From Eledone cirrhosa (lineage: Eukaryota), in contig OZ024741.1 of assembly GCA_964016885.1 (NCBI GenBank), positions 317,626,001 to 317,690,000 on the forward strand: a stretch of 64,000 bases of DNA. Reading direction: 5' to 3'. A program made the position numbers and the translations under genes. This document shows, one piece after another, positions 9,658 to 64,000 of this stretch. The number at the start of each line of letters is the position of its first letter. The stretch's first letter is position 1. The notes beneath the pieces were generated by a model. The model was not told the DNA's origin and did no database searches. It was given only the letters and a program-made list of their open reading frames with translations.

Positions 9658-9662
<5 letters not shown>

Positions 9663-9717
9663 ATTTCCAGCGTTTTGCTCAATCACTCTTTTGGTTCCCT
9701 GTCTAAAATTCTTCACC

Positions 9718-9775
9718 ATGTTCAGGTGTGGTGTTATTCTGATGTTGTTGGTTCTTGTAGGGTTAACCGTTGCAG
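9718..9775 (+). CDS. Small secreted protein, coding exon 1 (signal peptide [19 protein letters not shown])
   Basis: Acceptor TTTCCAG ending at 9670, CACCATG start context, hydrophobic core, phase-1 donor CAG|GTAGGA. Confidence 0.7.
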
Positions 9776-9960
9776 GTAGGAATATTTTCATATTTTATTT
9801 TTATCAAAGCATTACATATTTTGATTTTCAACTAAGCCAAATCATCCCAAAAAAATTTTTAATCCCCTTGTTACCATATTTCTAATGAAAGACACTGCTT
9901 CTGATTCTCAAATACTTTTTAAAATAATCATAATTAAGGTGAGGTTTGGAATATAACTTA

Positions 9961-10168
9961 ACTCTTTAGCATTTACATTACTCAATATTTACTATTTTGA
10001 TGGTAAACACTTTACCTCACATAATTATCTCACATGATATTGAATCTATGAGATTTTGATATTTAGAACAATATCTTAACATCAGTATGAGCAGCTAGTT
10101 GCAGCCGGTTTGAGCTGAAAGAGGTGAGAGAATTCTGGCCAGATACAGCCAGTTTAAAGGCTAAAAAG
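9961..10168. mobile_element. piggyBac-like MITE family 1
   Basis: Same body and TTAA flanks as the other copies. Confidence 0.7.
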
Positions 10169-10900
10169 TTAACAAAGATTGTACATGAAATTATTGTGAG
10201 GGATTTTTAGATAAATATATCCATTTTAAAATTTTGGATCATAGAACTAGGTGTGTTTCAGATGGTTTGCTATCAAATGGATTAATCTGTTTTTGATTTG
10301 TGTGTGAGTGTGTGGTTTTTTTATATTAAAAGTATAATTTATTCAAATTATATATATAATCATTATCTTATTTTAGATTCATTTCTTGGGTAAAGCAACT
10401 TTTTTTATGTCATTTACACTCTCAATCTTTTCTTAACATAAACAAAAAATCTTTAACTCTTTCATTACTATATTGCCAATGAAAGACAATATAGAAATGA
10501 AAGTGTTTAATAATTTTTGAAAGCAAGTATTTGAAAGGATTTAATAAAATGTATTCACATTATTAAGTTAGTGTTTGGAACAGAACTTAATGACATTTCT
10601 TACATAAAATTATGTTGGAAGGTTTTTACATAAATATAAACATTTTAATCCTTTTGTTACTATATTTCTTATGAAAGACACTGCTTATGATTTTCAAATA
10701 GTTTTTGAAAATAATCATGTATTTGGAGGGATTTAGTAAAATAACTTTCTTATTATTAAGTTGGTGTTTGGAACATAACTTAACAAAGGTTTTCACATAA
10801 AACCATGAAAAATTCTAGATCATTTTAAAATATATAGGTTTGTAAACAACATTGAAGGCAACGTTCGAACTTTCAAAGCACTGAAGGATTATGAGGTTCA

Positions 10901-11238
10901 TAGAAAATGTAAGAAATTGAAACAAAGAAAATAATTGTAAATACTTTTGGTTGCTATAAATAGCTTAGACATTTGACAGCCGATGATTGTTTTCAAGGGA
11001 AGCTGTTTGATTTAGTTTCTAATTTAGACAGTATTTTTTTACGGGATTTGGGGGGGGGGGGGGTCAATGATTAAAGCATTCAGCTGGTATCTGAAAGATA
11101 TGAGGTTTGATTCCTTGTTAGACTGCTGGCCGCTTTTTTTGTTTATAAGGGGTCTTTATCAGATCGATTTTCTAAGCCATTTATGAGAACCAACTGTATT
11201 TACAGTTATTTTCTGCACCTGAGATTCTTATATTTTCT
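10901..11238. mobile_element. MITE-like element with ~70-bp imperfect TIRs
   Basis: TAGAAAATGTAAGAA...AAATAGCTTAGA is the approximate reverse complement of 11171-11238; lies within a piggyBac-like family 2 MITE. Confidence 0.55.
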
Positions 11239-11788
11239 ATACAGCTTTGTATTGTAGAACAAGAGGTGGTTTCAGGCAGTTTGGTATCAAATAGTTGAAA
11301 GGAGGTCACTCTTCATTATAACTTTTCAAAATAGAAAATCTAATAACCATTATTTATACTAACCTGTCTGAAGCTTCAGGTTGATAGTAAAGGGGTAATT
11401 AGAGTAATTGTGTGTATTTGGTTTAATATACATAAACTATATTGCTGCATGTCATAGAAGGTGACATAAAGGGTTGGTATCTAGCCTTAAAACATTACCT
11501 CAAAAATGACCCCATGAGTCCAATTAACACTTGATAGCAAACTGTTTGAAACCACTCCTGGTTCTATGATACAATGTTTTAAGTGTTTATATTTATCAAT
11601 AAACCTTCCATCATAATTCTATGTAAGAAACTTTATTAAGTTATGCTCCAAACACCAACTTGATAAAAGAAAGTTATATTACTAAATCCCTCAAATGATG
11701 ATGGTGATGATTATGATGATGATGATGGTGATGATGATGATGATATGATGGCGATAATGATATGCAATTCTTTTCTTTTCTTTTCCAG

Positions 11789-11806
11789 CTCCAAAACAAG
11801 TTCAAA
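11789..11806 (+). CDS. Small secreted protein, 18-nt microexon 2 (APKQVQ)
   Basis: TTTTCTTTTCTTTTCCAG acceptor, GTAAGT donor, phase 1-1. Confidence 0.65.
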
Positions 11807-12841
11807 GTAAGTAGAGATGGAATATCTATTTTTTCTACCTTCTGATGATGGACCAGTGTCCAAAACATTAAGACACTTTTCTAATTTCTTTTAAGCATTA
11901 AACTAATTTTTCTTTTTTATGATTTTGACATCTCCCAAATTCCCCTCCTTTTACTATGTCCCCCTTACCTTTTACTATCTAAGTCCTTAATTTTCCTCCT
12001 CTCATATCCTTCATATTACCCCTCATCATCCAACCCATCCTAGCATGGAAAGGTGCGTACCTCCCCACCAACACTGTGCTCCCATTCTCCCATCCACATC
12101 CCCAATTCACCTTTTTGTCCAAGCCATACCAACATAGAAAGCAGGGCATGCCTCACAATATACTGCCAGATGCAACTTACTCACTTCATGGCCACCCCTA
12201 TGACCCAGAGCCAGATCTCTCATTGTGAAACAACTCCCTCCCACAGCAAGCAACATGTAGCTTACTCTCCTCACATCTCACACCCGTACTCCCATCATTG
12301 CCATCCCAGCCTGACCAAGGACACAATGAACACCTTAGTATTGTAAAGTGGTGGTGCTGGTGATACGACAAAAAGCACCCAGTCCTTACTGTAAAATGGC
12401 AATGCTGAAGTCATGATAAAATTCTTCCAGTCCACACTGTAAAGTGGTTGGCATTAAGAAGAACAGGACTTTTTTAACCTCAGAAGAGGGCATGCGTTTG
12501 ACCCATAGCAAGCATGGAAAATAGATGTTAAACAATGATGATGAAGAAGACATTATCAACGATATCATCATCATCATTACCGTTTAACATCTATTTTCCA
12601 GGTTGTCACATTCTGAGAGAAGAATTGATCCCAGTACTGGACTGGAACTGAATTTATTTACTCCCAAAGGAATGAAAGGCAAAGTTGACTTAAGTGTGAT
12701 TTGAACTCAGATCTCAGAGAATCAGAATGAACACTACAAATCATTCTTCCTGACGTCTTAGCAACTCTGCCAATCCCCCCACCCCCCACAGATGTGTATC
12801 TACTAGAAAAATGTAACTTCTTGTTTTGTTCAATTTTTCAG

Positions 12842-12907
12842 TGACGTTGCAGCAAAGTGAAAGCACTTTTGATTTTGACACCTATCTACCCGCCCGGGTG
12901 AAAAGAG
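12842..12907 (+). CDS. Small secreted protein, 66-nt exon 3 (MTLQQSESTFDFDTYLPARVKR)
   Basis: TTTTTCAG acceptor, AG|GTCAGT donor, open in phase 1, ends in an R-x-K-R furin motif. Confidence 0.7.
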
Positions 12908-12922
12908 GTCAGTACTAGTTAA

Positions 12923-13386
12923 CCTTTCCATGATCGCATTTCTAATGAAATACAGTCTATTTTAATTGATTAACCCTTTAGCATTTACATTACTCTCTAT
13001 ATACTATTGTAGTTTTGTGGTAAAGGCTTTATCTTACATAGTTATTTCACATAATATAAAATCGTTGAGATTTAAATGTTATTTACTTTAACGTTAAAAC
13101 TTTAACGTTAAAACTTTAACGTCAGTATGAGCAGTGGACGGTTTGAACAGAAAGAGGTGAGAGAATTCTGGCCAGGTATGGCTCGTTTAAATGCTAAAGG
13201 GTTAATTAAGAATTTCGAGGGATTTACTAAAATTATTAATTATTTCATTACTAAGATAGTAAATTAATGTAAGGTTCTTATATAAAATTATGTAGGAAGA
13301 TTTTAACTTAAATTAGAAACCTTTAAAATGGGTGATTTTATTTCATAGAATCAGAGCTGGTTTGGGCCAGATTGGTAACTAAAGGG
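12923..13386. mobile_element. piggyBac-like MITE family 2 with a family 1 MITE (12974-13201) nested at a TTAA
   Basis: Inner element TTAA|CCCTTTAGCATTT...AAATGCTAAAGGG|TTAA; the outer halves match family 2 copies near 10650, 16055, 34440, 37060 and 47650. Confidence 0.7.
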
Positions 13387-13390
13387 TTAA

Positions 13391-13804
13391 CCCATTAGCA
13401 TTTAAACCAACCGAATCCGGCCAGAATTTTCTCACCTCTTTCTGTCCAAACCAGTTATAACTGGTTGCACATATTGATGCTAAGATATTGTTCTGAAAAT
13501 AAATAACATCAAAATCTCATAGATTTGATATTATGTGTGATAATTATGAGGTAAAGTCTTTACCACAAAATTATAATAATATATATAGAGTAATGTAAAC
13601 CAGGCATGTCAAACATGCGGCCCTTTACAAGCACACCTGTGGCCCGCACAAAGGTTTTTATAGCATGAGTATGTTTTATCTTGGTAAAATTAGTTGTAAT
13701 GTGTGCAATTAGTTGTCGTGTGTGACCCTCAGACAACACATATGTGACCCATGTGGCCCTCGGGGGACCCTCAGTTTGACATGCCTGATGTAGATGCTAA
13801 GGGG
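13391..13804. mobile_element. piggyBac-like MITE family 1, reverse orientation, interrupted by a hAT MITE
   Basis: TTAA flanks; reverse complement of 12974-13201. Confidence 0.75.
13601..13787. mobile_element. hAT-like MITE
   Basis: 14-bp TIR CAGGCATGTCAAAC/GTTTGACATGCCTG with imperfect 8-bp TSD ATGTAAAC/ATGTAGAT. Confidence 0.8.
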
Positions 13805-14326
13805 TTAAAGGGTAATCGAGTTTATACTAATTTCATACATTTAATTCTTCATCAGGGAAAATTCTCCATTACACAGGAAATTATCTTTCACAGTATCATA
13901 CCACACCTATTTAAATGATCCTAAAAAGCCTGCATAGTTCGTAGACACAGACACGTGTACCCTTAACATAATTATCAAGGAGATTCAGTGTAATAGACAG
14001 TGTGTGACAAAACTGGACTTTTGAATTTCAGATACAGTCCATCTAATGGGCTTCATATAGTTTCTGTCTCCCCAATTTCATTCACAAGGGATGGGTCAAC
14101 CTGAGGCTATCGTAAGTGATACTTACCCAAGATGCCAAACAGAGATTGAACTCAGAGCCTCATGGTTGTCAGACAAACTTTTTCACCACTCTATATCATA
14201 AATGATAATTAGATATATATGAATGAATGATATATATGACTGAAATTATAATGAATAATATTAAATATCCATGCAGAACACAGCCTAATTTATTATAGAT
14301 ATAACTACAGCTTTTTATTATTAGAA

Positions 14327-14550
14327 ATTGGCAGTATTGGTAGAGCGTCGGACAACATGCTTTGTGCCATAGAATTACATCTCTTTATGTTCTAATTTCA
14401 AATCCTGCTGAGATTAGCTTTGTCTTTGCCTTTCATCCTTACAGGGTTGATAAAATAAAGTACCAGTCAGTAATGCACTGGGGTTGATTTAATCAACTTT
14501 AGCCTCCCCTTCAAATTGTTGGCCTTGTACTGAAAGTAGAAACAATTATT
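14327..14550 (+). mobile_element. tRNA-derived SINE (Deu/Nin-like)
   Basis: A box and GCCTTTCATCC core. Confidence 0.7.
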
Positions 14551-14718
14551 GGAAATCTCACTGTTAAAAGAATGAAATATTTATTTATTTATTTAATTAA
14601 GTTGCCAAATAAATGCACATAATGCAAATTAGAGTGACCTTTACTGTTATATTCTACACCCTGCTTGACATAAATAGCAATGCTATAAAATCCCTCTGTA
14701 GGCAGAATATAGGGAGAG

Positions 14719-14765
14719 TTACCTTCTGATGAAGTGACAATAATTTATGAAATGCATAAAGATAA
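14719..14765 (+). ncRNA. Putative minimal type I hammerhead ribozyme
   Basis: TTACCTT-CTGATGA-weak stem II-GAAA-TGCATA^AAGATAA; stem I pairs 6/7 and stem III is the palindrome ATGCAT. Confidence 0.45.
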
Positions 14766-14989
14766 TATCTTATGTTTTTCTGTGTTCAAAGGGAATGGCA
14801 GAAAGTATATACACTTCTTGCTTTTCACAGTGAGGTTTCTAATTCAAAACTATAGTTATATCTACATTAAATTTATCTCATATTTTATAATATAAACTGT
14901 ATTCTAGCATAAATATTTATTTAATTAATTACATGCTGTGTTGGATGTGCAGTGTAAATATGAGAGAGAGGCAGAGCATGGATGAGTAG

Positions 14990-15315
14990 AAGAAGAAGCT
15001 GGTTTTAAGAGGAATTCAAGATGGTGTGCAGGAGAGAAGACAGTGTTGGTTTGGACATGTAATGTGTATGGACAATAATCTTTGGGTGAAGAAGTGCCAG
15101 GAAATGTTAGTGAAAGGAAGTTGTGGTAGAAATAGACCAAGAAAGACCTGGGCAGAGGTTGTGAGAACTGACCTCCAATCACTGAAATTCACAGAGGCAA
15201 TGACAAAGGGTCATGATATGTGGAGAGATGCCATGCTGAGAAGGACCAGTCCAGCCCATGCAATTATGTGAAAAAGCAGACGTAAAAATGACAACGATGA
15301 TGATGTGATGATGAT
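14990..15315 (+). mobile_element. Degenerate RTE LINE 3' fragment
   Basis: WFGHV...RPRKTWAEVV motif and (GAT)n tail. Confidence 0.75.
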
Positions 15316-15713
15316 GATTTCCAAACAAATGCCCATATGCTAAATAGACTGACCATTTCACTGACCATGTTCTACATTTTGCTTGACATTTATTGTGATG
15401 CTATAAAGATCCTTCTGTAGGCAGAATCATATTAACAGTTATTTTTTGATGAGGAGATAATAATCTCAGATGTGGCATGGCAAATTCAAGTTTCCACCCA
15501 TAATTATATCCAGATAAAAAGAGATACTGGACCATCGGTGGTACACCTACATTTTATATGAAGTTCTCTTTGACTTTAGAGTACCGTCAATGTTTTTTGT
15601 GATTGTTATGACATCATGAATATTCTAGATATAATTTACAACTCTTATTTCAACAACATAACAAACATTATAAACATAACTTACAAATGTTGCTATTTTT
15701 GCATATTTTACAG

Positions 15714-15734
15714 CTGCCAAAAGACTCAGAGTTG
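15714..15734 (+). CDS. Small secreted protein, 21-nt microexon 4 (AAKRLRV)
   Basis: TTTTACAG acceptor, G|GTGAGT donor, phase 1-1. Confidence 0.65.
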
Positions 15735-16588
15735 GTGAGTATAATCAACTATCATCCTCATCATTAGTTTTATATCCATTTTTCAATACTGGTGTGGGTT
15801 GGATGAGAATTTTTGAGGTAGTATTCTATAGCCAAATGCCTCTCCTGATGTTAACACTCAGTTTTGTTTTGTTTTTTTTAAGTAAGGTACAGATCTTCAC
15901 ATAGATCTGAGCAGCACAATCTGTTTACATAGAAGATCAATAAGCATCACCATCTGTAATATCAAATGTGAATAGAAGAGACGGGCACACACACACATTT
16001 AGTAATATACCCAACATTCTTGTTATTAAGCTGGTATTTGGAACATAACTTAACCCTTTCATTACTATATTTCTAATTAAATACACTGTATATGATTTCC
16101 AAATCATTTTCAATATTACAAGAATTTGGAGATATTTAGTGATATAACTGACTTTCTCATTATTAAGCTGGTGTTTGGAACACAACTTAACCCTTTCGTC
16201 ACCATATTTCTAATAAAAAATACAACCTGTTAATGATTTTCAAATAATTTTGAAAAAAATCAAGAATTTTTAGGGATTTAGTAGCAGAGATAAGTAACAG
16301 AGTTTGATAATAAAACTGATAGAACTAGCCTGCTGTGAAATGAGAAGTTATAAACATCAGTATGGAGATGGTAAGTAATGAAATGAAATTAGGGATCTAT
16401 AAGCATAACAAAAATCTGCAAACCCTTCAGAAACTCTCTCTCTCTCTCCCTTTTCACTGTTTTAATTGCTAACATGTTTTCCCTATATATAAGTCTATCA
16501 ATAATTACAAATGTACATTCGATATTTTCTTTCAAAGTACATTTGTAAAAAGATATAGAAAGAATTCTTGGTTTCTAATATTTTTCAG

Positions 16589-16621
16589 AATTTGTTGTGA
16601 GAAGGCGAAAAAATAAACCTG
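16589..16621 (+). CDS. Small secreted protein, exon 5 short form (EFVVRRRKNKP); long form runs to a stop at 16699-16701
   Basis: TTTTTCAG acceptor; only phase 1 is open; weak donor CTG|GTATTG at 16622 and stronger donor AG|GTAAGA at 16734. Confidence 0.55.
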
Positions 16622-16883
16622 GTATTGTTGTTGTTCGGATTCCCAAGGACAATAAAGATAAGGTGCCACCCCATCACCGAGAGTGCAACAAGCACCACTA
16701 ATCTCCTGTGCCACTTACCTGACATATGAGTAGGTAAGAATACAGAGAGAGAGAGAAAGAGAGAGACTGGTGATTCCTGGGTGGAACACTAAACTAACTG
16801 CAAATTAGCTTTGGAATAGTTTCGGAAAATTGTGGGCCAGATATTGAATCTTCTGACCCCAGAATGGATATATGTTCTTTAAC

Positions 16884-17062
16884 AATAATTGTTTCTACTT
16901 TAGGCACAAGGCCAGCAATTTCCCAGTGCATTACTGGTACTTTATTTTATCGACCCCGTAAGGATGAAAGGCAAAGTCAACCTCGGCGGGATTTGAACTC
17001 AGATCGTAAAGGGACGTAACTATGCATCCGACCCTCTACCGATACTGCCAATCCACCGCCCT
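16884..17062 (-). mobile_element. Young tRNA-derived SINE with TSD
   Basis: Flanked by direct repeat TATGTTCTTTAACAATAAT. Confidence 0.85.
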
Positions 17063-17699
17063 ATGTTCTTTAACAATAATGACAACAACATCGTCAATAA
17101 CAACAATGTTGGTGCCACACTAAAATTAACCCAGTGCAATCTATAAAGTGGTTGGTGATCAAACAGAGATAACACAGAGTTGAAAGAACTACTAGATCTT
17201 ACTAACTAGACAACAACCTCTCTAGTGATGATGACATGATAAAATACACTCATTATTTTTAGTAATGTAATTGGCATTAGGAAGAGCATCCAGCCATAGA
17301 AACTATGAGTAAGACATGGTTCTTTGACCAGTTTAGCTTTGGAGTGTGATTACCTGTCCGACCAATGCTGGGTCCTATGGATGACCATTCCATATGTTCA
17401 TTTGCTGCCATGCCTTGATCCTTTAACACCTGATGAAGCTGTAGGGCATTATCATGACATATGTCTGGCAGAGCCCATCCTCTCCATGTTGGAAGGCAAC
17501 CAATTTCCTGCAAAGAAATGTATAGAGGGAAAGAGTAAGAGAGAATTGAGAATAAGTTATAGAGGAAAAATTGACACCATTACTGAACTGGTTCTTTATT
17601 TATTGATCTTAAAAAGATGAATGGCAAAGTTGACTTCAACAGGATTTGAACTCAGAGCGTAAGAAGTCAGAACAAATACCACAAAGTACATCGTATCCA

Positions 17700-18290
17700 A
17701 CATCCTAACAACTGAACAAAGTGCAAGAATTGCAGGAGCTGATGCAGTAATGTGCCAGCTTCAGCATTCAGTAATCAGAAGAAAGGAGCTAGGCATAAAA
17801 GCTAAACTCGCTATCTTCAATTTGGTATTCATGCCAACCTTTACTTCTGGTCACAAATCTTGCATAATGACCGGAAGAATATGATCGCAAATACAAATAG
17901 CCGAAATGGGGTTCCTCTGAAGGGTCCTTTGAGTAACTTTACTCAATAGAGTGTGTAATTCAGAGATTAGAGAGTCACTCCAGGTAGAGCCGCGACTTCT
18001 GCGAATTGAGAGATCACATCTCCGATACTATGGGCATGTGGTTAGAATGTATCAGGAAAGAATCGCTGGACAGATTTTACGGGCAAAACCAAGTGGCAGG
18101 AGACTCAGGGGTAAACCCCAAGCAAGATGTTTAAATAACATCCATGAGCTTGGCTGGTCTTGCTTGGCAATCTAGCCAGATCAGTGGGATATGGTTGCTT
18201 CTTACAGGTCCCACTGAAAGGAGTTTTTAAGGACTCTGCCCCCATGACCCTCTCAGGAATAAGTGGGAGAAGAAGATGTAGAAGAAGAAG
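17700..18290 (+). mobile_element. Degenerate RTE LINE 3' fragment (second family, (GAA)n tail)
   Basis: LLRIERSHLRYYGHVVRM motif; second copy at 52055-52548. Confidence 0.7.
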
Positions 18291-18950
18291 CCAAATGAAT
18301 GAAAGGGGAGCAGACATAGACACCCCTACAGCTGTACCTCCTTTCATTTAGCAAAACATTCAACATTCCAGAGGATGACAACTAGAAGGAGAGGGAGGGA
18401 AAGGGCTGCATCAACACTTGGTCTAGTACTTTCCTTATTGACCACAAAAGGATAAAAGGCCAAGTGGACCTCAGCAAGATTTGAACACAGAGCACAGAGA
18501 GCTGGAACAAATATCTGATGATTTAATGACTCTGCCAAACTCACCACTTTTTTTTTATGAATTATATGATAAACTGCTAAAACGCCATAATAAAAATTTA
18601 CAGAATTACAAATAAATATTTTTAAAAAATAAATTGTAAGCAGTATTTTCTAGTGGTCAACACTAAATAACCCAATGGGAAGCTAGTTGCAAAACATATA
18701 CATTAAAATTTTAACAACATATGGTGCCCCAGCATGGTACCCAGTATAGTACCCCAGTATGGTATCCCAGCATTATGCCCCAGCATGGCCACAGTCCAAA
18801 GACTACAACTATTAAAAGAATAAAAGACTAACTGCCTAAGGTTATAAACTGGATGAATCATCTAAAATCTTTGGTGAAACAGTTGTATTTAAATCTTTTT
18901 TCATACCGAACTTCCTGAAATTGTCCCTGGTTCTCTTATCCAGATTCTAG

Positions 18951-18978
18951 TCTATATCTATATATATAAAACTGAGGA

Positions 18979-19022
<44 letters not shown>

Positions 19023-19618
19023 TTTGAATCCCTAAAACTCGAGAAGTACCCAACCGATCTTTTTCAAACTTTACATGTGTGTTACTTATGTTTCAGGGAG
19101 TGTTATGCACATAAACAAATTCAACTTGTTGATCCTCTAGGGCCCGCATTAGGTGAAAAATTGCGTTTTTTCAACTTTTTAGGGGGTTTTTTGAGGCGTT
19201 ACGTCAGACCGATTTCCTTGAAATTGTAACTATGTATTAGTCAGTCTCTTTTTCATACCGTGAGCAAAGAATATCCAACTTTTTTATGGCCTAGGGCCCA
19301 CATTAGGTGAAAAACTTCATTTTTTCAGCTTTTTTGAGGCGTTCCGTCTAGCCGATTTTCCCAAAATTTCAAAGCCTATTATGCACATAAAAGAAATTCA
19401 TTTTCTTTATCCCCTATTAGGTGAATATCCCGCATTAGGTGAAAATCTGCATTTTTCCTGCTTCATCGAGGAAAATCTTAAAGATTATCCAGCCATCAGA
19501 GTATTCGGTTTATTTTCTTTACATATTGTTCAGGCATGCAGTTTTTCCACGATTAGGTCTGTTGGCGGCCCACATTCCAAAAGACCTTATCGCGTGCAAC
19601 GCCGAGTACCACTGCTAG
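18951..19618 (+). mobile_element. Non-autonomous Helitron
   Basis: Copy of 6114-6730 with TC...CTAG|T termini. Confidence 0.8.
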
Positions 19619-19835
19619 TATATTATACATTTCAAAGCAAGGAATTCATTTAATGTCAATTTATCTTATTTTCTAATGAATATCGAAAGAAATCATCCAT
19701 TTTGTTTTTTTGTTCTCCATTTTGAGAGGAGGAATGAAAGAGAGAAAGAAAAAGAGAGAGAGAGAGTAAGGGGTGAAAGAGAGTGAAGGGATGTGGCATG
19801 ACTGGGCATTGTAAAATCTGTTCTTCATAGTTTTA

Positions 19836-20128
19836 TCTATATATCTAAAACAGAGAATGTCTGTCTGTCTGACTCTCTAAAACTCGAGAACCACTCAACC
19901 GATTGTTTTCAAATTTTACACATGTAATACTTATGGTCCTGTGAGTGTTTTGAGCAAATATTTCAAATTTTCAATGCCCTAGGGACCGCATTACGCACCG
20001 TTTAGCGATCTCTCTCTCTCTCTCTTAGTCTTTCTTTTTAGATAGATACATAGATATAACGTTGCGCCCTTATAATATGTCTGTATGTCTGGCTGTCTGC
20101 ATTACGACCATTACGGCCATTCTGCTAG
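19836..20128 (+). mobile_element. Short internally deleted Helitron
   Basis: A|TCTATATATCTAAAAC...CATTCTGCTAG|T; same family as 3247-4017. Confidence 0.75.
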
Positions 20129-20412
20129 TATTTATCTAAAAACAGAAACACCTTTAGTTAAATTATGTTCCAAATACAAGCTTAAAATGAGAAAGTTATA
20201 TAACTAAATACCTTCAAATTCCTGATTATTTTCAAAATGACTTGAAAACCATTGGCATGGTAATGAATGGGTTAAATATTCTATCTATATTCCACCAAAG
20301 AAGTTCCTGGATTCTTTTATAAGTTTATAGAGATCAATGTTTGAAATATTAGGATATTTCCATCTCTATCAATGTGAAACCATTCCTTTTTAATGTGTTT
20401 AATGTTTTTCAG

Positions 20413-20490
20413 TCCAACTTCAGCAAGAAGAGATTCCAGTCCATTTCAGCTTCAAGCTGCAATCTGCAGAACCAGTAAAGCTAAATGGTG
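20413..20490 (+). CDS. Small secreted protein, 78-nt exon 6 (VQLQQEEIPVHFSFKLQSAEPVKLNG)
   Basis: TTTTTCAG acceptor, G|GTAAGA donor, open in phase 1-1. Confidence 0.6.
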
Positions 20491-21306
20491 GTAAGATGAT
20501 TGTTATTTAATCTGAGTATTGTACCTCTAGCCGTAAAGGCAGAATCATTAGAATATCAGATAGAATGCTTTGTTATATTCGTTTCAACTCTCTTTGATCT
20601 GTGTTCAACTTTGCCTTTCGCCCTTTTAAGGTCAATAAATAAAATACTAGTTCTGTATTGAGATTGATTCTCAATTTCTCTTCCCCACTCTCTCCCTTTC
20701 TCTCCCCTTCTCCCTTTTTCTCTTTATCTGGAAGACTTAAGCTGTGTTCAGACAATGGTTTAAATGTTCAAGATGATGCCTCACTCCTTATCAGCTCCAC
20801 CAGGAGTTAAGTGTTCATGGATGAATATATCTTCAGCAGGGATGGAAATGGATTTTAGGAAGTAGCTGTATGTTAGGGTCTGTGAGGCTGGGGTAGGGAA
20901 GGAGGGGGAGGGGTAGATGCAATATGGAGATGGCCATCTGCAAGAAAACACCCTGTGAGGTGAACTAGTTCTTTCATCATATCACTTTTATGTGAAATGA
21001 ATGAATGAATGAAAATGAATACTATTGTAGTTTTGTGGTAAAGACTTTATCTTATATAATTATCTCACATAATATCAAATCTATGAGATTTTGATGTTAC
21101 TTATTTTGAGAACAGTACCTTAACGTCAGTATGAGTGGCTAGTTACAACCAGTTTGAACAGAAAGAAGTGAGAGAATTCTGGCCAGATATAGCCAGTTTA
21201 AATACTAAAGGGTTATGATTCAGTTTATTGTCAAATAAAGCTATATCAAATGTATTTTATATTCTGCAAGCAATGTTACAAATATTTTCAATATTTATAT
21301 TTCCAG

Positions 21307-21320
21307 ATAGAACAATCTGA
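21307..21320 (+). CDS. Small secreted protein, last coding exon (DRTI-stop)
   Basis: TTTCCAG acceptor, TGA at 21318-21320, AATAAA near 21508. Confidence 0.5.
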
Positions 21321-21699
21321 TCACTGAACTTTTGGTTTCACTTGAATATTGCCTCTGTATTTGGATATTATCTCTGTATTTCGATGTTGTCTGTGTCGTT
21401 GGAAATTTACTTTAAAGATTAAATTTACCCATGTGCTGAATATAATTTCATGAATTTTTACCTGCCGAAAAAAAAAACATACCTTAGCAATTAATATAAG
21501 AGATAAAAATAAAATTGCAAATATCTCTTGTCTATATAAGTGTTTTAATTATTCTTATGTGACTGTGTTGGTGCCAGGAAGGCATCCAGCAGTAAAACAT
21601 TGCATCAAAAAGAACCTCATTAGTACGAAGCCATTCATGGGCTTCACATGGCTAACCCTTCTTTTAGCATTTCAAGTGACAGGTGTAGTTATCTGTGTG

Positions 21700-23195: not shown

Positions 23196-24189
23196 TGTGA
23201 TGACTGTAATTATCTATGAGTGTGTGTGTAGGCATGGTACATACTATCAAATTATACTCAGTTGTTAGTGATAGTGATAGTGGTAGTATAGTGTCCACGG
23301 GTCAGTATAACTGAGAACTCCAACCTTCAGTGTAACACAGGTAAAATGTTTCCTAACAAGATTTAAAGAGGAGGGAGCAACAATAAAGATAATTCAATGA
23401 TGATATAAGTGAATTGATATGGTTTTAAGTGGAACAGAAAATATATTCTATCTCAATCTGTTACTTGTTAGCAAAGATTTAAGAAGCCTGGCTTCCATCA
23501 CTTTAATTATTATTTTATTGCTTTTACTCGTTAGACTATAGCCAGGTTGGGCACCACTTTAAAGGGATTTTTAGTAAATCAAATCAACACTAGTACTTAT
23601 TTTTCAAGCCTGATACTTATATCAATCTCTCTTTTATCGAACTGTACTTGTGAACAATCGACCACACAAATGTGCAAACCTGCAGACAACCCAAACATGC
23701 GTGCATGCCCCACCCCTACACACACACATAAGGATAAATGAATAAAAAAAAAATGCATTCTCACCATAAGTAAAAGCAAAGATAGAACGTTCAATGCTAA
23801 GGGAATGGTTAGTTATGGTCCTAACCTGTAATGTGGAATGGTAATAGGCATTAAATATGGGAGGGTGGTGTTTAGCAGATGTTAAAAGAATTAGCTATGG
23901 AAATGAAGGAACCCAGTACTCTATTGGATAGATTAACTGGTGCACATAAAGATCGATGTACTAGGTTGCAAAAGGGATGCGATATTTGGTTCATGTTCAT
24001 GTTGATGTGGAGGGAGGGGTCAAAAGTTAGAATTTAACTAAGATTTTTAAGAAAGTCTTTGATATTTTGTGATGGCATGTGTTAAAGAAATTAAAGCGCC
24101 TATTAATTACATGGTGCCCACTCTCAATAATTTCCACAGCTTCCATGGTACATAAATCATGATGCAATTTTTACTTTTATTAACCACAA

Positions 24190-24430
24190 TAGGAAAAAGA
24201 AAATGATAATTAAATTCTTTAAATATATTGGTCTAAATCTAGAAATAGAGATTAACAGAGAAATAGTAAACTTCCTTGATATCACCCTAAACCTCAATTC
24301 TGGCTTCTTTTACCTAAACCATAAATTAAATGAAAATCTAAATTACATTAGCTTTAACTCAAACCACCCTATGGTAATAACCAAGGTTATAGTTAACAGT
24401 GTATTTTGGAGAATTTCTACACTGTCTGCA
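24190..24430 (+). mobile_element. Penelope-like element RT/thumb fragment
   Basis: VNFLDITLNL...YISFNSNHP...RISTLS motif typical of Penelope-like RT C-terminal regions. Confidence 0.65.
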
Positions 24431-24433
24431 ATA

Positions 24434-24480
<47 letters not shown>

Positions 24481-24865
24481 AATTATTATGTAAAGTGCTC
24501 AGGGGCACTACAACTCGTCAAAGGTGCATGTATAGTACATAGAATAATATACAAATGTCAGGGAAGTGAATCGTGTATGAGTCATGATATACATGTGTGT
24601 ATGTGTTTGGAGGGGGAACATTAGGTGTAGTGTTGGCGAATCTCGGGAAGCATGGAGGTTTTAAAGGATGCAGTGTCTCGACAGCTAACAACTGATGCAG
24701 GTAGTTTGTTCCATGCTTCAGCAACTCTGAGCGTGAAAAAATGTTTCTGAAAGTCATGGGAACTGTGCTGTTTTCTGACTTTGTGGGCATGCCCATGTGT
24801 GTTAGACACATGGAAATCAAAAAGGTACTCAGGGTTGTTGTTGGCAAGATAGTTGATATTTTTGA
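24431..24865 (-). mobile_element. CR1-like LINE 3' fragment with (ATT)n tail
   Basis: HFFTLRVAEAWNKLP; matches 27130-27650. Confidence 0.85.
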
Positions 24866-39357: not shown

Positions 39358-39852
<495 letters not shown>

Positions 39853-42120
39853 CTAAAGGACCCCACAGCCAGAAATAAATTTCAAAGCATATTACTTGAT
39901 GCTTTCGACAGTAAGGAGGAACATTTAGAGTCGGACAATATAGAGGGACAGTGGGAATTTCTGAAAAGCAAACCTGCTGATGACGACAGACGAAGTCTGT
40001 GGCTGGAGCAGGCCTGTAGGCAGGAGGAGAGTAACATGGTGGTGGAGGGGTCAATTAAGGCCAAAAAGCAGGCTTGGAAAGTATGGTGGGATGGAGGAAG
40101 TAGAGAAGACTATCAAGTGGCCAGGAGGGAAGCTAGGAGACAAGTGTACTTAGCAAGAAGGGAAGCTGAGGAAAGAAAGTTCAAGCATGTTCTACAACGC
40201 GAGGACCAGAAACGTGAGGTGTTCAGGATTGCTAGGCAATGCGTCAAGGAAAACCGTGATATTGTCGGGGAGAAGTGTGTACTTAACGATGATGGCATAC
40301 TTGCCATCACCGACGCTGATAAGAAGGTAGCTTGGAAGTGTCACTATGAAAGGCTACTAAATGAGGAGAATAAATGGGAGAAAGACAGTCTCCCCCACAT
40401 CGACCCAATAGAGGGACCAGCAGTGTTAGTCGAGGGGAGTATAATAAGTAAGGCAATCAAGGATATGAAGACGGGTAAGGCGGCTGGGCCTTCGGAAATA
40501 GTTGCTGAGATGCTGAAGGCATCTGGCACGGTGGGACACACCATGGTCACCCGCATAGTTAACCAAGTCGTACAGAATGGGGTTGTTCCGAAGGACTGGC
40601 ATAGCAGCATCATCGTTAACTGTTATAAGGGTAAAGGAGACGCCCTAGATAGGAGTAACTATAGAGGCATTAAATTAATCGACCAGGTCATGAAGGTCAC
40701 GGAAAAAGTAATAGCACAACTAATCAGAGAGAGAATTGACCTAGATGAAATGCAGTTCGGGTTTGTGTCAGGCAAAAGTACCACAGACGCTCTTTTCATT
40801 GTACGACAACTACAGGAGAAGTACCTAGCTAAAGGTAAACCCCTCTACTTAGCTTTTGTCGACTTGGGGAAAGCCTTCGACAGAGTCCCCCGCTCCATTA
40901 TCTGGTGGGCTCTTAGAAAACTAGGCGTTGACGAATGGCTTGTGAGAGCTATACAAGCCATGTATAAAGAAACAGTCAGCAAGGTTAGAATTAACAACGA
41001 ATATAGTGAAGAGTTTAGCGTAAAAGTTGGCGTCCATCAGGGCTCTGTTCTCAGCCCCCTACTATTTATTATTGCCCTTCAGGCTATAACAGAGGAGTTC
41101 AAGACCGGCTGCCCATGGGAACTCCTATACGCAGATGATCTAACGCTCATAGCTGAATCAATGGCCGAGCTAGAGAAGAAATTCCAAACATGGAAGCACG
41201 GCCTAGAATCAAAAGGACTTAAAATTAACCTGGCTAAGACTAAAGTTCTAGTTTGTAGGAAAGAAAATAAGGCGGCGGTCCCTTCTGGGAAATGGTCGTG
41301 CTCGGTGTGTAGGAAAGGCGTAGGTAGAAACTCCATTTTATGTCCTAAATGCAAAGTATGGGTGCATAAAAGATGTAGTGGGATCACAGGTAAGCTAACT
41401 AAGAACATAGATTTTACGGTGCTCTGGTGCAATAAGTAGCAGCAAGAGCCCACAAAATACTAGCTCTTTCAATTGCGCAGAGGGTTCTATAGAAATAGTG
41501 GGCAGCTTCCATTACCTGGGTGATAAAATCAGCAGTGGGGGAGGGTGCTCTAAAAGTACAGTAGCTAGAGTCAGAACTGGTTGGAAAAAGTTCAGAGAGC
41601 TTATACCACTATTAGCTGCTAAAGGGTTCTCCCTAAAAATGAAAGGCAGGTTGTACGATGCCTGCATACGAACAGCAATGTTGCATGGCAGTGAGACCTG
41701 GGCATTGTGTGCAGAGGATATACGCAGACTAGAGAGGAACGAAGCTTGCATGCTCCGCTGGATGTGTAACTAATATACGTGAACGGCAAAGCATAAACGA
41801 ACTAAGGAAAAAATTAGAAATAAGAGGGATCAGATGTTGTTTACTCGAGAGAAGGCTACGTTGGTATGGACACGTGATGCGCATGAAAGTCGATAGTTGT
41901 ATAACAAAGTGCAGGGCAATAAAGATAGACGGTAGCCACGGAATAGGCAGACCTAGAAAAACCTGGGACGAGCTGATAAACTCCGACCTCACACACTTAC
42001 ACCTCTCCAAGACAATGTCACTGGACCGAGACCTTTGGCGGTACTCAGTAACAGAGAAGACCCGCCTTACCTAAATACATAGTAAAACCTACTACAGCCA
42101 GTAGGCATCTCTAACAAAAT
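39853..42120 (+). mobile_element. 5'-truncated RTE-clade LINE (RT, frameshifted)
   Basis: [26 protein letters not shown] and YADD; small deletions near 41417 and 41770 relative to the 58842 copy. Confidence 0.92.
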
Positions 42121-49769: not shown

Positions 49770-50789
49770 TCAAAGTTGTTTGTATACAATACCTCTCATG
49801 ATATTTGGGTTGTATGGTTGCTGTTGATGGTGTGGATTGGTGATGGTGGTGGTGGTATTGGAGGTGGTGGTATTGGTGGTAGTGGGGGGGCCATTATTGA
49901 CAGTGGCATTGTGGGCATGATGAGGGGGAACAACATTCATCGCATTCATTCTTTCGACCAGGTGTGTTTTTTCATGACATTTTAACAGCGATTTATGAAC
50001 GAACTCTTTACCACAAACATCGCAGCTCAGCGGCATTTTACGGTTATTATTTTCATGGTTGCGAATATGAGTTTTCAAATTTCCTTTCTGAGAAAACCCC
50101 CGAGCGCAGATCGGACACGAAAATGGCTTCTGGCCATCATGGGACATCTTGTGGATCTTCAAGTTGCTGATTTGAGAAAAAGATTTTTGACAAACATCAC
50201 ATGAGTAAGGCTTATCTCCCGTGTGTGAGCGCTCATGGATTTTCAGATTTCCTTTCTGAGAGAATGATTTGTGGCATGTTTCACATGTAAATGGTTTCTC
50301 ACCTGAATGAACTCGATGGTGATTTTTTAAGCTAGCAATTTGAGAGAAAGATTTATGGCACGTGACACAAGTGTATGGTTTATCACCTGTGTGACATCTC
50401 TGATGGTGTTTTAGATTACCACGCTGAGAAAAAGACTTCCAACAGAGCGGACATTTAAAAGGCTTCTCTCCTGTGTGAGTTCTCATGTGGTGCTTTAGAT
50501 TTCCCTTTTGTGAAAATCCACGATTGCATGTTAAACATGTGTAGGGTCGTTCTCCGGTATGACATCGCTCATGACTGCGCATGCTTGACACCTGTGCAAA
50601 AACTTTGCGACAATACGAGCATGAATATGTTTTGTTTTCACTGTGTGTTTGTTGCTTGTGTCTTTTCATTTGATCATAGAGTGGGAAGACAGCCCCACAT
50701 GTTTCACAAGGAAACTGTCGACCAAGTGGGTAGTTAGGTGTAGAACTACTTTGCATAGAATACATTGTCACTGGTGTATGTTGTTGCAT
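49770..50789 (-). CDS. C2H2 zinc-finger transcription factor, 9 fingers, 339 aa
   Basis: Tandem fingers with TGEKP/TGDKP linkers and a T/N/H/Q-rich tail; candidate minus-strand acceptor at 51367-51385. Confidence 0.93.
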   Translation of the reverse strand: MQQHTPVTMYSMQSSSTPNYPLGRQFPCETCGAVFPLYDQMKRHKQQTHSENKTYSCSYCRKVFAQVSSMRSHERCHTGERPYTCLTCNRGFSQKGNLKHHMRTHTGEKPFKCPLCWKSFSQRGNLKHHQRCHTGDKPYTCVTCHKSFSQIASLKNHHRVHSGEKPFTCETCHKSFSQKGNLKIHERSHTGDKPYSCDVCQKSFSQISNLKIHKMSHDGQKPFSCPICARGFSQKGNLKTHIRNHENNNRKMPLSCDVCGKEFVHKSLLKCHEKTHLVERMNAMNVVPPHHAHNATVNNGPPTTTNTTTSNTTTTITNPHHQQQPYNPNIMRGIVYKQL

Positions 50790-51154
50790 TTTGTTTTTTT
50801 AAATAGATATTCAAGAATGAACTAAAATTAAAGAGAAATGTTTCCTAGCAAATCTATCTGATAAATTAGCAAAGAAACTGCATAAATTGTTGCAGGATCT
50901 ATATAATAATATAGGTAGTCATCAGAAAGTCAATAACTGCACTTGTTTGTGTGTATATGTATATATACTGTGAAACTTCAATATAAACAGTTACTATTAA
51001 CAAATATTATGTTGACTTTATATACATTGAGTCCTTAATTCAGTGTTTGTTTAGTGTGTTTATTACACCAACCATTAAAACAAACTCACTATTGCATATA
51101 AATAGCAGCAGAATAATGTGAGGATAAATAACTGCTCAGATAAAATATGACAGA

Positions 51155-56089: not shown

Positions 56090-56795
56090 AGAAGAAATAG
56101 AACTAGAAACATAATCTGGTATGCTCCTCCATTTTCACTAAGTATTAAAACACCTTTAGCTAAACTATTTTTTAAAGCTCTTGATATTTTCCCAAGGCCC
56201 ATGGATATTACTCAATCTTTAACAGACATACAATTAAACTATCTTACTCTACTACTATGAACCTAGCACAAAATATAAATAGAATCAATAATAGAAATCT
56301 AAACCTTAACCAGAATAGTACTAATACCTCTAGCCATATCCAATATAATAATACTGTTCCGAATAATATAAACTCTGATAAATGTAATTGTAGAATTAAA
56401 TCTAACTGTCCTTTAAAAAATAACTGTTTAGTTAAAAATGTGGTCTATAAATGCAATGTCAGAACCAATGATAATATTTTTAACTATGTTGGCTCAACTT
56501 CTACAGACTTTAAATCTCGTTTCAATAACCATAAATGCTTGTTTAATAATATTGGTAAAAAATCTTCAACTTCTCTATCCAACTTGATATGGAACTTAAA
56601 ATCCAAAAACAGAGACTATTCTTTATCTTGGAATATAATTTCTTAAGCACCTGCTTACAAGAACACAGCTTTATCCAAATTTTGCAAATTGTGTGTTGAA
56701 GAAATTTTCTTCATACTTAAATGTAAGAACTCCATTAATTTACGTAACAATTTATTTAGTTCTTGTAAACATCGCCAAAACTCAACTTTTAGATC
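56090..56795 (+). pseudogene. Penelope-like GIY-YIG endonuclease domain (Naiad-like), disrupted
   Basis: NIIWYAPPF, IFNRHTIKLSYS, CNCR...CPL, VVY...YVGST..FKSRFNNH, CKLCVEE and CKHR; frameshift near 56195 and TAA at 56644. Confidence 0.8.
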
Positions 56796-58505: not shown

Positions 58506-58671
58506 ATTTTGGTTTTATAAATATAGTTTCCATTTATTAATATATTGAATATTTACTCCAGTTATCGGTTGAGTGCTCTATATAAGTTGTAAACTTTTAA
58601 GTTTGTTGGAATCCCAACAAATTAAATATAACTTCTACATATATATATATGTGCGTGTGTGTATGTATATA

Positions 58672-58750
<79 letters not shown>

Positions 58751-58751
58751 G

Positions 58752-58829
<78 letters not shown>

Positions 58830-58841
58830 TATATACATACA

Positions 58842-60613
58842 CAGGTCATGAAGGTCACAGAAAAAGTAATAGCGCAACTAATCAGAGAGAGAATTGACCT
58901 AGATGAAATGCAGTTCGGGTTTGTGTCAGGCAAAAGTACCACAGACGCTCTTTTCATAGTACGACAACTACAGGAGAAGTACCTAGCTAAAGGTAAACCC
59001 CTCTACTTAGCTTTTGTCGACTTGGAGAAAGCCTTCGACAGAGTCCCCCGCTCCATTATCTGGTGGGCTCTTAGAAAACTAGGCGTTGACGAATGGCTTG
59101 TGAGGGCTATACAAGCCATGTATAAAGAAACAGTCAGCAAGGTTAGAATTAACAACGAATATAGTGAAGAGTTTAGCGTAAAAGTTGGCGTCCATCAGGG
59201 CTCTGTTCTCAGCCCCCTACTATTTATTATTGCCCTTCAGGCTATAACAGAGGAGTTCAAGACAGGCTGCCCATGGGAACTCCTATACGCAGACGACCTG
59301 ACACTCATAGCGGAATCAATGGCCGAGCTAGAGAAGAAATTCCAAACATGGAAGCACGGCCTAGAGTCAAAAGGACTTAAAATTAACCTGGCTAAGACCA
59401 AAGTTCTAGTTTGTAGGAAAGAAAACAAGGCGGCGGTCCCTTCTGGGAAATGGTCGTGCTCGGTGTGTAGGAAAGGCGTAGGTAGAAACTCCATTTTGTG
59501 TCCTAAATGCAAAGTATGGGTGCATAAAAGATGTAGTGGGATCACAGGTAAGCTAACTAAGAACATAGATTTTACATGTGGCCGGTGTTCTGGTGCAATA
59601 AGTAGCAGCAAGTGCCCACACAATACTAGCTCTTTCAATTGCGCAGAGGGTTCTATAGAAATAGTGGACAGCTTCCGTTACCTGGGCGATAAAATCAGCA
59701 GTGGGGGAGGGTGCTCTGAAAGTACTGTAGCTAGAGTCAGAACTGGTTGGAAAAAGTTCAGAGAGCTTATACCACTATTAGCTGCTAAAGGGTTCTCCCT
59801 AAAAATGAAAGGCAGGTTGTACGATGCCTGCATACGAACAGCAATGTTGCATGGCAGTGAGACCTGGGCATTGTGTGCAGAGGATATACGCAGACTAGAG
59901 AGGAACGAAGCTTGCATGCTCCGCTGGATGTGTAACAGTAATATACGTGAACGGCAAAGCATAAACGAACTAAGGAAAAAATTAGAGATAAGAGGGATCA
60001 GATGTTGTTTACTCGAGAGAAGGCTACGTTGGTATGGACACGTGATGCGCATGAAAGTCGATAGCTGTATAACAAAGTGCAGGGCAATAAAGATAGACGG
60101 TAGCCACGGAATAGGCAGACCTAGAAAAACCTGGGACGAGCTGATAAACTCCGACCTCACACACTTACACCTCTCCAAGACAATGTCACTGGACCGAGAC
60201 CTTTGGCGGTACTCAGTAACAGAGAAGACCCGCCTTGCCAGTAGGCATCTCAAACAAAATACACCCCGTCCCACCACCACCACCCCCACCCCATCCACAC
60301 CACCCCGTCCTATGTAAAGTTATGTTGGTGCCGCGCCATCCGGGCCGAAACAAATGAGATCGTGTAGGTGTCACGACAAAAAAACACACAGTCCACGCTG
60401 TAATGTGGCCGTGTAGGCAACACGGTAAAAACCTCCCAGACCCACACTGTAAATGTGGTTGGTGTTAGGAAGGGCATCCAACTGTAGAAAACCTGCCAGA
60501 CAGTCCTATGCGAGCAAGACAATCACTCTTGCCTCAAGTGGGACTACCCCCGTCCAAACCCATGCAAGCGTGGAACACGGACGTTAAACGTTGATGATGA
60601 TGATGATGATGAT
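58842..60613 (+). mobile_element. Young 5'-truncated RTE LINE with uninterrupted RT-PHD-thumb ORF
   Basis: Open frame to 60317, near-identical to 40684-42070, (GAT)n tail, (TA)n on both sides. Confidence 0.93.

Positions 60614-62046: not shown

Positions 62047-64000
<1,954 letters not shown>

What the first reader, a model, noticed from the sequence alone, without database searches (positions are those of the whole stretch)
9671..21520. Hidden microexon gene encoding a small secreted prepropeptide
Seen: seven short non-repeat segments (9718-9775, 11789-11806, 12842-12907, 15714-15734, 16589-16621, 20413-20490, 21307-21320) each follow a pyrimidine-rich AG, and all but the last end at a GT donor. 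Every internal exon is a multiple of 3 in phase 1. Spliced, they give 95 aa: [95 protein letters not shown]. Established: a signal peptide, an acidic pro-region and R-x-K-R are the layout of convertase-processed peptide precursors. Inference: a lineage-specific secreted peptide (neuropeptide, antimicrobial or gland product) that I do not recognise and that ORF scans miss.
Basis: partly seen in the sequence, partly recalled or inferred. Interest (0 to 1): 0.82.

Follow-up and report, generated by a model that had tools for sequence, protein, structure and literature searches.

The report
Octopus small-exon secreted beta-strand peptide
Seven short DNA segments scattered over 12 kb of an octopus-type genome join in frame into a likely gene for a 95-residue protein that is predicted to be secreted, cut at a basic cluster and built of beta-strands with one greasy face, but neither an RNA copy nor a relative of it has been found.

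Summary
All seven segments lie at the stated coordinates with AG/GT ends. The five internal ones (18, 66, 21, 33, 78 nt) are symmetric and phase 1, and the join gives 95 codons plus TGA. Eleven of 12 splice sites rank in the top 5% of the window; the exon 5 donor is weak. New, independent support: residues 20-95 alternate hydrophobic and polar residues as amphipathic beta-strands do (z 4.0; 11 of 50,000 shuffles; 0 of 600 chance mosaics). Best reading: a single-copy octopod orphan gene (about 0.9 that it is real). Its secreted product is probably cut at RVKR/KR/RRRK into two near-neutral beta-peptides that pack into sheets in a gland or skin secretion (about 0.4). It fails the gene-structure test for octopus venom family SF1 and only partly meets that for flatworm micro-exon genes. 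Splicing is inferred from DNA alone. Only single-exon pieces were searched, so the absence of relatives is weak evidence.

The parts
9671..9717 (+). 5' untranslated part of the first coding exon, behind an acceptor AG at 9669-9670; implies an unlocated upstream non-coding exon
   Evidence: acceptor 8.2 bits; no ATG before 9718; the stretch is also open in phase 1, see rival 4
9718..9775 (+). coding exon 1: ATG and the whole predicted 19-residue signal peptide, phase-1 donor
   Evidence: donor 99.5th percentile; hydropathy peak 3.4 over 11 residues; no SignalP-type predictor was available
   Evidence: acceptor 11.2 bits, donor 5.8 bits; unverified
11789..11806 (+). exon 2, 18-nt microexon (6 residues)
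   Evidence: best-scoring AG..GT pair of 79 in the window
12842..12907 (+). exon 3, 66 nt (22 residues), ends in the furin-type site RVKR
   Evidence: only phase 1 is stop-free; beta pattern z 2.7
15714..15734 (+). exon 4, 21-nt microexon (7 residues, basic); a second in-frame donor at 15791 would give 78 nt
16589..16621 (+). exon 5, 33-nt microexon (11 residues, holds RRRK); least certain exon
   Evidence: donor only 86.7th percentile; only phase 1 is stop-free
20413..20490 (+). exon 6, 78 nt (26 residues), faintly similar to exon 3
   Evidence: global shuffle p 0.007, 1 of 10 pairs, uncorrected; beta pattern z 2.5
21307..21320 (+). exon 7 coding part (4 residues and TGA)
   Evidence: acceptor 99.0th percentile
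21321..21535 (+). predicted 3' untranslated region with AATAAA at 21508-21513 (end position approximate)
   Evidence: 19-nt tandem repeat at 21342-21407

Best explanation
The seven segments are likely the exons of a single-copy octopod gene whose 95-residue product would be secreted and is predicted to be cut at its central basic cluster into two near-neutral peptides that would pack into beta-sheets in a gland or skin secretion. Steps and their status. (1) Shown in the sequence: seven in-frame segments with canonical splice ends, start context and poly(A) signal. (2) Inferred: they are spliced together. (3) Predicted from hydropathy: residues 1-19 are a signal peptide. (4) Shown by computation: residues 20-95 alternate hydrophobic and polar side chains with period 2 and have no helical amphipathicity. 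(5) Inferred from established convertase rules: cuts after RVKR (47), KR (51) and RRRK (62) would free peptide A (residues 20-45, 3.0 kDa, net -1), a 7-residue piece (52-58) and peptide B (63-95, 3.8 kDa, net 0). (6) Inferred: the +6 to +7 basic cluster on microexons 4 and 5 keeps the precursor soluble, and removing it lets A and B stack through their hydrophobic faces into sheets or fibrils in mucus, cement or saliva. (7) Possible but untested: skipping any internal exon keeps the frame (32 of 32 combinations), so splicing could add or remove the cleavage cassette.
For: Exon model. Phase 1 is the only stop-free frame of exons 3 and 5 and is the phase that exon 1 hands on. Beta periodicity: Kyte-Doolittle moment at 170 degrees z 4.0, 11 of 50,000 shuffles; 0 of 600 mosaics of chance AG-preceded stop-free segments of the same lengths reached it (max z 3.1). 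The spectrum peaks at 170-180 degrees and is negative at 100. It is present separately in exons 2+3 (z 3.2) and 6+7 (z 2.8). Hydrophobic-polar-hydrophobic triplets number 11 against 4.7 expected (p 0.002). The splice-site choice did not use this property, so it supports both coding and a beta-strand product. A and B share a faint likeness (exon 3 vs 6, global p 0.007; exon 2 vs 4, p 0.017). All basic sites lie between residues 44 and 62. Precedent that small secreted cephalopod precursors escape annotation: bioRxiv 10.1101/2024.04.14.589438, section read.
Against: Splicing, secretion, cleavage and assembly are all inferred from DNA. With the Eisenberg scale the beta signal is only p about 0.02, and eight scale/angle/window variants were tried. 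The basic middle (exons 4+5) shows little signal (z 1.1; exon 5 alone -0.8). The A/B likeness does not survive correction for 10 pairs (0.07), is p 0.044 in local mode, and is absent at DNA level (p 0.54; flanks p 0.075). The excess of symmetric exons is not significant at loose splice-score cuts. Alternation also fits an ordinary folded beta-sheet domain. The tissue is a guess: nothing here shows where the gene is expressed.
Confidence: 0.4

Rival explanations
1. One reading: signal peptide, disposable pro-region up to RVKR, then a cationic mature peptide (residues 48-95, net +6) acting on anionic membranes as an antimicrobial or salivary-gland (venom-type) peptide.
For: RVKR is a canonical furin-type site (established rule) and ends exactly at the exon 3 boundary; residues 48-95 have pI 11 and net +6. 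Cephalopod salivary glands express 27 superfamilies of short secreted proteins of unknown function (bioRxiv 10.64898/2026.02.02.703354).
Against: The 'pro-region' is net +1, not acidic, and carries the strongest sequence pattern. RRRK at 59-62 and KR at 50-51 would cut the mature part further. The SF1 venom family differs in gene structure and neighbours.
Confidence: 0.2
2. The 76-residue mature chain is not cut but folds (or dimerises) as a small all-beta domain, with the basic cluster as a surface patch that binds polyanions such as heparan sulfate, mucus or nucleic acid.
For: Period-2 alternation runs along the whole chain in five to seven stretches. The basic cluster also fits a bipartite nuclear-localisation-like spacing at 46-62, so the basic pairs need not be cleavage sites.
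Against: Three convertase-type sites cluster in 19 residues; there is no disulfide to stabilise a 76-residue secreted domain.
Confidence: 0.17
3. Classical neuropeptide or hormone precursor whose products act on G-protein-coupled receptors.
For: Signal peptide plus dibasic sites; cephalopod-specific secreted markers of neurons exist and some were annotated as non-coding.
Against: No Gly before any basic site (no amidation signal), no Cys pair, no short repeated motif. Whole-length beta periodicity is not expected of receptor ligands or their spacers (general knowledge).
Confidence: 0.12
4. The model is wrong: a chance chain of splice-like sites, a dead gene, or part of a longer gene in which 9671-9775 is an internal exon with a membrane anchor.
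For: Eleven candidates of equal splice strength exist in the span, so exons were selected. The exon 5 donor is weak. The stretch 9671-9775 is itself 105 nt, phase 1 and open. No homologue of any piece was found.
Against: Splice-site ranks, the unique signal exon, the start context and poly(A) signal, and the independent periodicity test. Of 13 upstream donors of 6.5 bits or more, none of the 6 in unique sequence has an in-frame ATG (2 of the 7 in repeats do). The homology searches used single-exon pieces from a species whose zinc-finger linker is only 65% identical to O. vulgaris, so they are weak.
Confidence: 0.11

Closest known systems
Micro-exon genes (MEGs) of Schistosoma and other flatworms (PMC4350168, PMC4671649, PMC10526429; passages read)
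   Same: Signal peptide wholly in the 5' coding exon; small symmetric internal exons between kilobase introns (816-3,791 nt); small secreted product of about 10 kDa (10.96 kDa); hard to annotate; skip isoforms stay in frame.
   Different: Seven exons rather than 10-20; exons under 36 nt hold only 72 of 216 internal coding bases; no MEG motif after the signal peptide; beta-strand rather than disordered or amphipathic-helix products; a mollusc, whereas MEGs are described as restricted to platyhelminths; no homology; alternative splicing not shown.
Octopod salivary superfamily SF1 (octopus tachykinins, octotensins; bioRxiv 10.64898/2026.02.02.703354, parts 1-2 of 10 and passages read)
   Same: Octopod-specific short secreted precursor with basic cleavage sites that can free more than one peptide. 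A resemblance between the signal peptides is recalled from memory only and was not tested.
   Different: [quoted passage not shown] This gene has seven coding exons, no paralogue in the window and C2H2 zinc-finger neighbours. It has no RRPYIL-type C-terminus and no amidation signal.
Cephalopod orphan secreted precursors ('bradykinin-like' precursor of Octopus bocki; obimac0019980)
   Same: Lineage-restricted, signal peptide, no recognisable domain, missed or mislabelled by annotation.
   Different: Their sequences were in figures or closed supplements and could not be compared; identity with one of them is not excluded.
Cross-beta adhesive and structural proteins of marine invertebrates, such as barnacle cement proteins (PMC9999432, passages read)
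   Same: Secreted proteins that assemble as beta-sheet fibrils; the analogy is to how it may work.
   Different: No homology shown; those patterns are blocks of charged and uncharged residues in larger proteins, not residue-by-residue alternation in a 76-residue convertase-type precursor.

Membership tests
Flatworm micro-exon genes (MEG) | Signal peptide mostly or entirely in the 5' flanking exon | tested here: met
   residues 1-19 lie in exon 9718-9775; definition
Flatworm micro-exon genes (MEG) | Internal exons symmetric (multiple of 3) | tested here: met
   5 of 5
Flatworm micro-exon genes (MEG) | Central coding part mostly made of microexons under 36 nt; 10-20 short exons | tested here: not met
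   3 of 5 internal exons but only 72 of 216 bases; 7 exons in all
Flatworm micro-exon genes (MEG) | Variation by alternative splicing of the microexons | not testable with these tools
   no RNA data could be laid; 32 of 32 skip isoforms are in frame, which only shows it is possible
Flatworm micro-exon genes (MEG) | Platyhelminth origin or homology to a MEG family | tested here: not met
   octopod neighbour gene; the motif given is absent after the signal peptide
Octopod venom superfamily SF1 | Reading frame mostly on two exons | tested here: not met
   seven coding exons
Octopod venom superfamily SF1 | [quoted passage not shown] | tested here: inconclusive
   no paralogue by tblastn in the 64-kb window and zinc-finger neighbours; genes beyond the window unseen
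Octopod venom superfamily SF1 | Tachykinin-, neurotensin- or myosuppressin-like peptide between basic sites | tested here: not met
   no RRPYIL-type end, no Gly before a basic site
Octopod venom superfamily SF1 | Sequence similarity of the precursor (signal peptide) to SF1 members | not testable with these tools
   sequences are in a figure and a closed supplement; resemblance recalled only
Convertase-processed peptide precursor | N-terminal signal peptide | tested here: met
   Met, basic residue, hydrophobic core (peak 3.4), small residues at 19-20; by hydropathy, not by SignalP
Convertase-processed peptide precursor | R-x-K/R-R or dibasic sites | tested here: met
   RVKR 44-47, KR 50-51, RRRK 59-62
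Convertase-processed peptide precursor | Acidic pro-region (as in many antimicrobial and venom precursors) | tested here: not met
   residues 20-47 net +1
Convertase-processed peptide precursor | Processed peptides present in tissue | not testable with these tools
   needs peptidomics
Amidated or disulfide-bonded neuropeptide | Gly before the basic site, or paired Cys in the mature part | tested here: not met
   none; the only Cys is residue 4

The most novel reading that the evidence does not exclude
A cephalopod counterpart of flatworm micro-exon genes in which exons are beta-strand modules and two microexons form a removable basic 'lock': convertase cleavage, or skipping of exons 4-5, would switch a soluble precursor into self-assembling beta-sheet peptides, giving octopuses an undescribed family of protease-triggered fibril-forming secretions.
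Probability: 0.12. Interest if true: 0.72.

Novelty: new member of a known kind. Interest (0 to 1): 0.38.

Why it matters
If real, it is one more small secreted octopod gene that ORF scans and protein catalogues miss, and it shows that the octopus secretome is under-counted. Its sequence pattern gives a cheap, direct test: two synthetic peptides of about 3-4 kDa. If they self-assemble after cleavage, octopuses, which lack the squid suckerins, would have their own beta-sheet material or membrane-active peptide, and the micro-exon layout would be a candidate way to vary it. If it is simply a gland peptide, it is an ordinary orphan of modest interest.

Tried and rejected
RNA: no RNA holder listed for the 3' end 21300-21530 (3 runs, one sample, one study, kind not on record); this says nothing on expression. 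Laid on 9660-21600, their contigs run straight through exon-intron borders, so I read them as genomic DNA, possibly the source sample. Listed pieces of X1 cover exons 2, 4, 5, 6 and 7 with 0 differences (exons 1 and 3 are not among the listed pieces). All 15 listed substitutions lie outside exons. The 15 joints shown join repeats, and 1,928 more were not shown, so the call neither shows nor excludes splicing. No whole genome is held, so synteny, paralogues elsewhere and the upstream exon could not be examined. Protein searches used single-exon pieces with some in-frame flank; the whole spliced protein was never searched or folded, which leaves its relatives and fold open. Exon 6 piece: 0 hits among 1.84 billion representatives, no usable Atlas hit (25), no Pfam, best PDB sequence match E 0.44 (65). 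Exon 3 piece: no Atlas (61), Pfam or PDB hit. Exon 5 piece: one Pfam match at E 0.06, below its cut-off (24), rejected. Exon 1 piece: no candidate among 40-130-residue proteins (28); 38 candidates among longer ones, none with E up to 10 (54). Exon 6 was not searched in the 90%-cluster collection. AlphaFold of a 30-residue exon 6 piece: pLDDT 82, pTM 0.22, no secondary structure assigned (60), no Foldseek match (69); uninformative. Three versions of the two zinc-finger proteins are not in the protein collection by exact look-up (27), which suggests this assembly is not annotated there. Literature: 10 searches. Five 7-8-residue motifs occur in 0 papers (42). Five-residue motifs gave 0 hits in the supplements of PMC7693380 and PMC7551771, and 1 unrelated hit in PMC11525497 (one file cut when stored). 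Exact motifs would miss diverged orthologues. The sequence file of the 822 salivary transcripts (bioRxiv 10.64898/2026.02.02.703354) and the O. bocki supplement are closed, and either could hold a relative. Tandem exon duplication as origin: no DNA similarity between exons or their 150-nt flanks, not shown. Helical amphipathic peptide: rejected (z negative at 100 degrees). Earlier scan notes on this genome or sequence: none.
Full report
Setting. The window is AT-rich (35% GC), 43% covered by within-window repeats, and carries two C2H2 zinc-finger frames. The one at 35479-36969 is 83% identical to a protein of Octopus vulgaris and O. sinensis, 65% in its linker, and 45% in the linker to Argonauta hians. 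The source is therefore an octopod rather distant from the annotated Octopus species. No whole genome is held.

The observation. All seven segments are present as stated and join to 95 codons plus TGA; the five internal ones are 18, 66, 21, 33 and 78 nt, all phase 1. Introns are 816-3,791 nt. None of the exons lies in a within-window repeat. The first coding exon starts at an acceptor at 9671, with 47 untranslated bases and a CACCATG start; AATAAA lies at 21508.

Is it chance? With a rough, recalled splice-site matrix, 11 of 12 sites are in the top 5% of all AG or GT sites of the window; the exon 5 donor is at the 87th percentile. Strong AG..GT pairs inside the span are symmetric and open in 4 of 4 cases, against 2 of 14 elsewhere. 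This cut was chosen after the fact, and at loose cuts the excess is not significant (5 of 13 vs 13 of 66; 6 of 19 vs 34 of 172). No simulated span of 300 reached four. The signal exon stands out among 30 ATG-to-phase-1-donor candidates, and phase 1 is the only stop-free frame of exons 3 and 5.

Independent support, and the main new finding. The 76 residues after the signal peptide alternate hydrophobic and polar side chains. The Kyte-Doolittle moment at 170 degrees has z 4.0 (11 of 50,000 shuffles). None of 600 mosaics made from chance AG-preceded open segments of the same lengths reached it. The signal peaks at 170-180 degrees, is negative at the helical 100 degrees, and holds separately in exons 2+3 (z 3.2) and 6+7 (z 2.8) but not in the basic exons 4+5 (z 1.1). 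On the Eisenberg scale it is only p about 0.02, and eight variants were tried. Splice signals do not produce this pattern, so I put the gene at about 0.9 real and the exact exon chain at about 0.7. The open points are exon 5, a possible extra 21-nt exon at 11245-11265 and a second donor at 15791.

What the product looks like. Residues 1-19 are a predicted signal peptide (hydropathy only). All basic sites (RVKR 44-47, KR 50-51, RRRK 59-62) cluster in the middle, mostly on microexons 4 and 5. Full cleavage would give A (20-45, net -1), a 7-mer and B (63-95, net 0). A and B faintly resemble each other (exon 3 vs 6, p 0.007 global, 0.044 local, 1 of 10 pairs; nothing at DNA level). There is no amidation Gly, no mature Cys and no N-glycosylation site.

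How it most likely works. I commit to a secreted precursor kept soluble by a central basic cluster and clipped by a convertase, whose near-neutral amphipathic beta-peptides then pack into sheets in a gland or skin secretion (0.40). Shown: exon anatomy, periodicity, charge layout. Inferred: splicing, secretion, cleavage, assembly, tissue.

Relatives. None was found, but only single-exon pieces of 30-74 residues (19-27 of them real) were searched, from a species far from annotated ones, so this is weak evidence. The sequencing-run search and read-laying are reported under Tried and rejected.

Comparison with known kinds. The layout works like flatworm micro-exon genes (signal peptide in the 5' exon, symmetric small exons, about 10 kDa; passages of PMC4671649, PMC4350168 and PMC10526429). 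It is not a member: microexons hold only 72 of 216 internal bases, there are 7 exons, and the host is a mollusc. Phase-1 symmetric exons behind a signal-peptide exon are also the usual build of animal secreted proteins (recalled). Earlier scan notes report micro-exon secreted genes in a placozoan and a fungus (unchecked leads), so the layout outside flatworms is not by itself surprising. It is not the octopod venom family SF1, whose frames mostly lie on two exons between NR-GRF and FABP genes (bioRxiv 10.64898/2026.02.02.703354, parts 1-2 of 10 and passages). It could belong to one of that paper's 27 superfamilies of unknown function, whose sequences I could not see. Cephalopod secreted precursors annotated as non-coding RNA are on record (bioRxiv 10.1101/2024.04.14.589438, one section). 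Other papers were seen as passages only: PMC13311285, 10.1101/2022.06.11.495763 (43), PMC9068888, PMC7656900, PMC9999432. Supplement searches only: PMC7693380, PMC7551771, PMC11525497. I found no description of this peptide in ten searches of an open-access library.

Verdict. Probably a real, unannotated octopod orphan gene for a small secreted beta-strand precursor: a new member of a known kind, interest 0.38. The boldest reading not excluded is a MEG-like, protease- or splicing-triggered self-assembling peptide system (probability 0.12, interest 0.72).

Noticed in passing
window 35479-36972 +: Single-frame 497-residue C2H2 zinc-finger gene, orthologue of O. vulgaris/sinensis XP_029644586.1 / CAI9732998.1 (83%) and Argonauta GAB1604351.1; a synteny anchor for finding orthologues of the peptide gene.
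   Followed up: partly
window 49770-50798 -: Second C2H2 zinc-finger open frame of 342 residues with about nine fingers and an Asn/Thr-rich tail.
   Followed up: partly
window 11245-11265 +: 21-nt symmetric, phase-1, stop-free segment with a strong acceptor (11.2 bits) and weak donor (5.8) between exons 1 and 2; could be an optional exon adding a Cys.
   Followed up: partly
window 7282 +: Strongest donor upstream of the gene (11.0 bits, unique sequence, no in-frame ATG); candidate end of the missing non-coding first exon; others at 8043 and 9336.
   Followed up: no
window 25833-27371 +, 39619-41439 +, 58632-60317 +, 33142-33651 -: Long open frames that look like LINE reverse-transcriptase or endonuclease remnants (label from recalled motifs, not tested); 25833-27371 is open over 512 codons.
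   Followed up: no
window 24131-24493 + and 56185-56646 +: Asn-rich open frames resembling Penelope-type retroelement proteins (recalled resemblance, not tested).
   Followed up: no
window 16879-17063 and about 17 other places: A short interspersed repeat with up to 18 matches in the window and summed contig depth of about 3 million against 5-16 for unique pieces: a very abundant family.
   Followed up: no
window 62051-63997: About 1.9 kb of (TA)n, running to the end of the window.
   Followed up: no
window 29865-29936 +: Three nested acceptors sharing one donor, all giving symmetric open phase-1 segments (72, 60, 42 nt) in unique sequence; may belong to another gene.
   Followed up: no
exons 3-5 (window 12895-16621, residues 46-62): The basic cluster also fits a bipartite nuclear-localisation-like spacing, odd for a secreted protein.
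   Followed up: no
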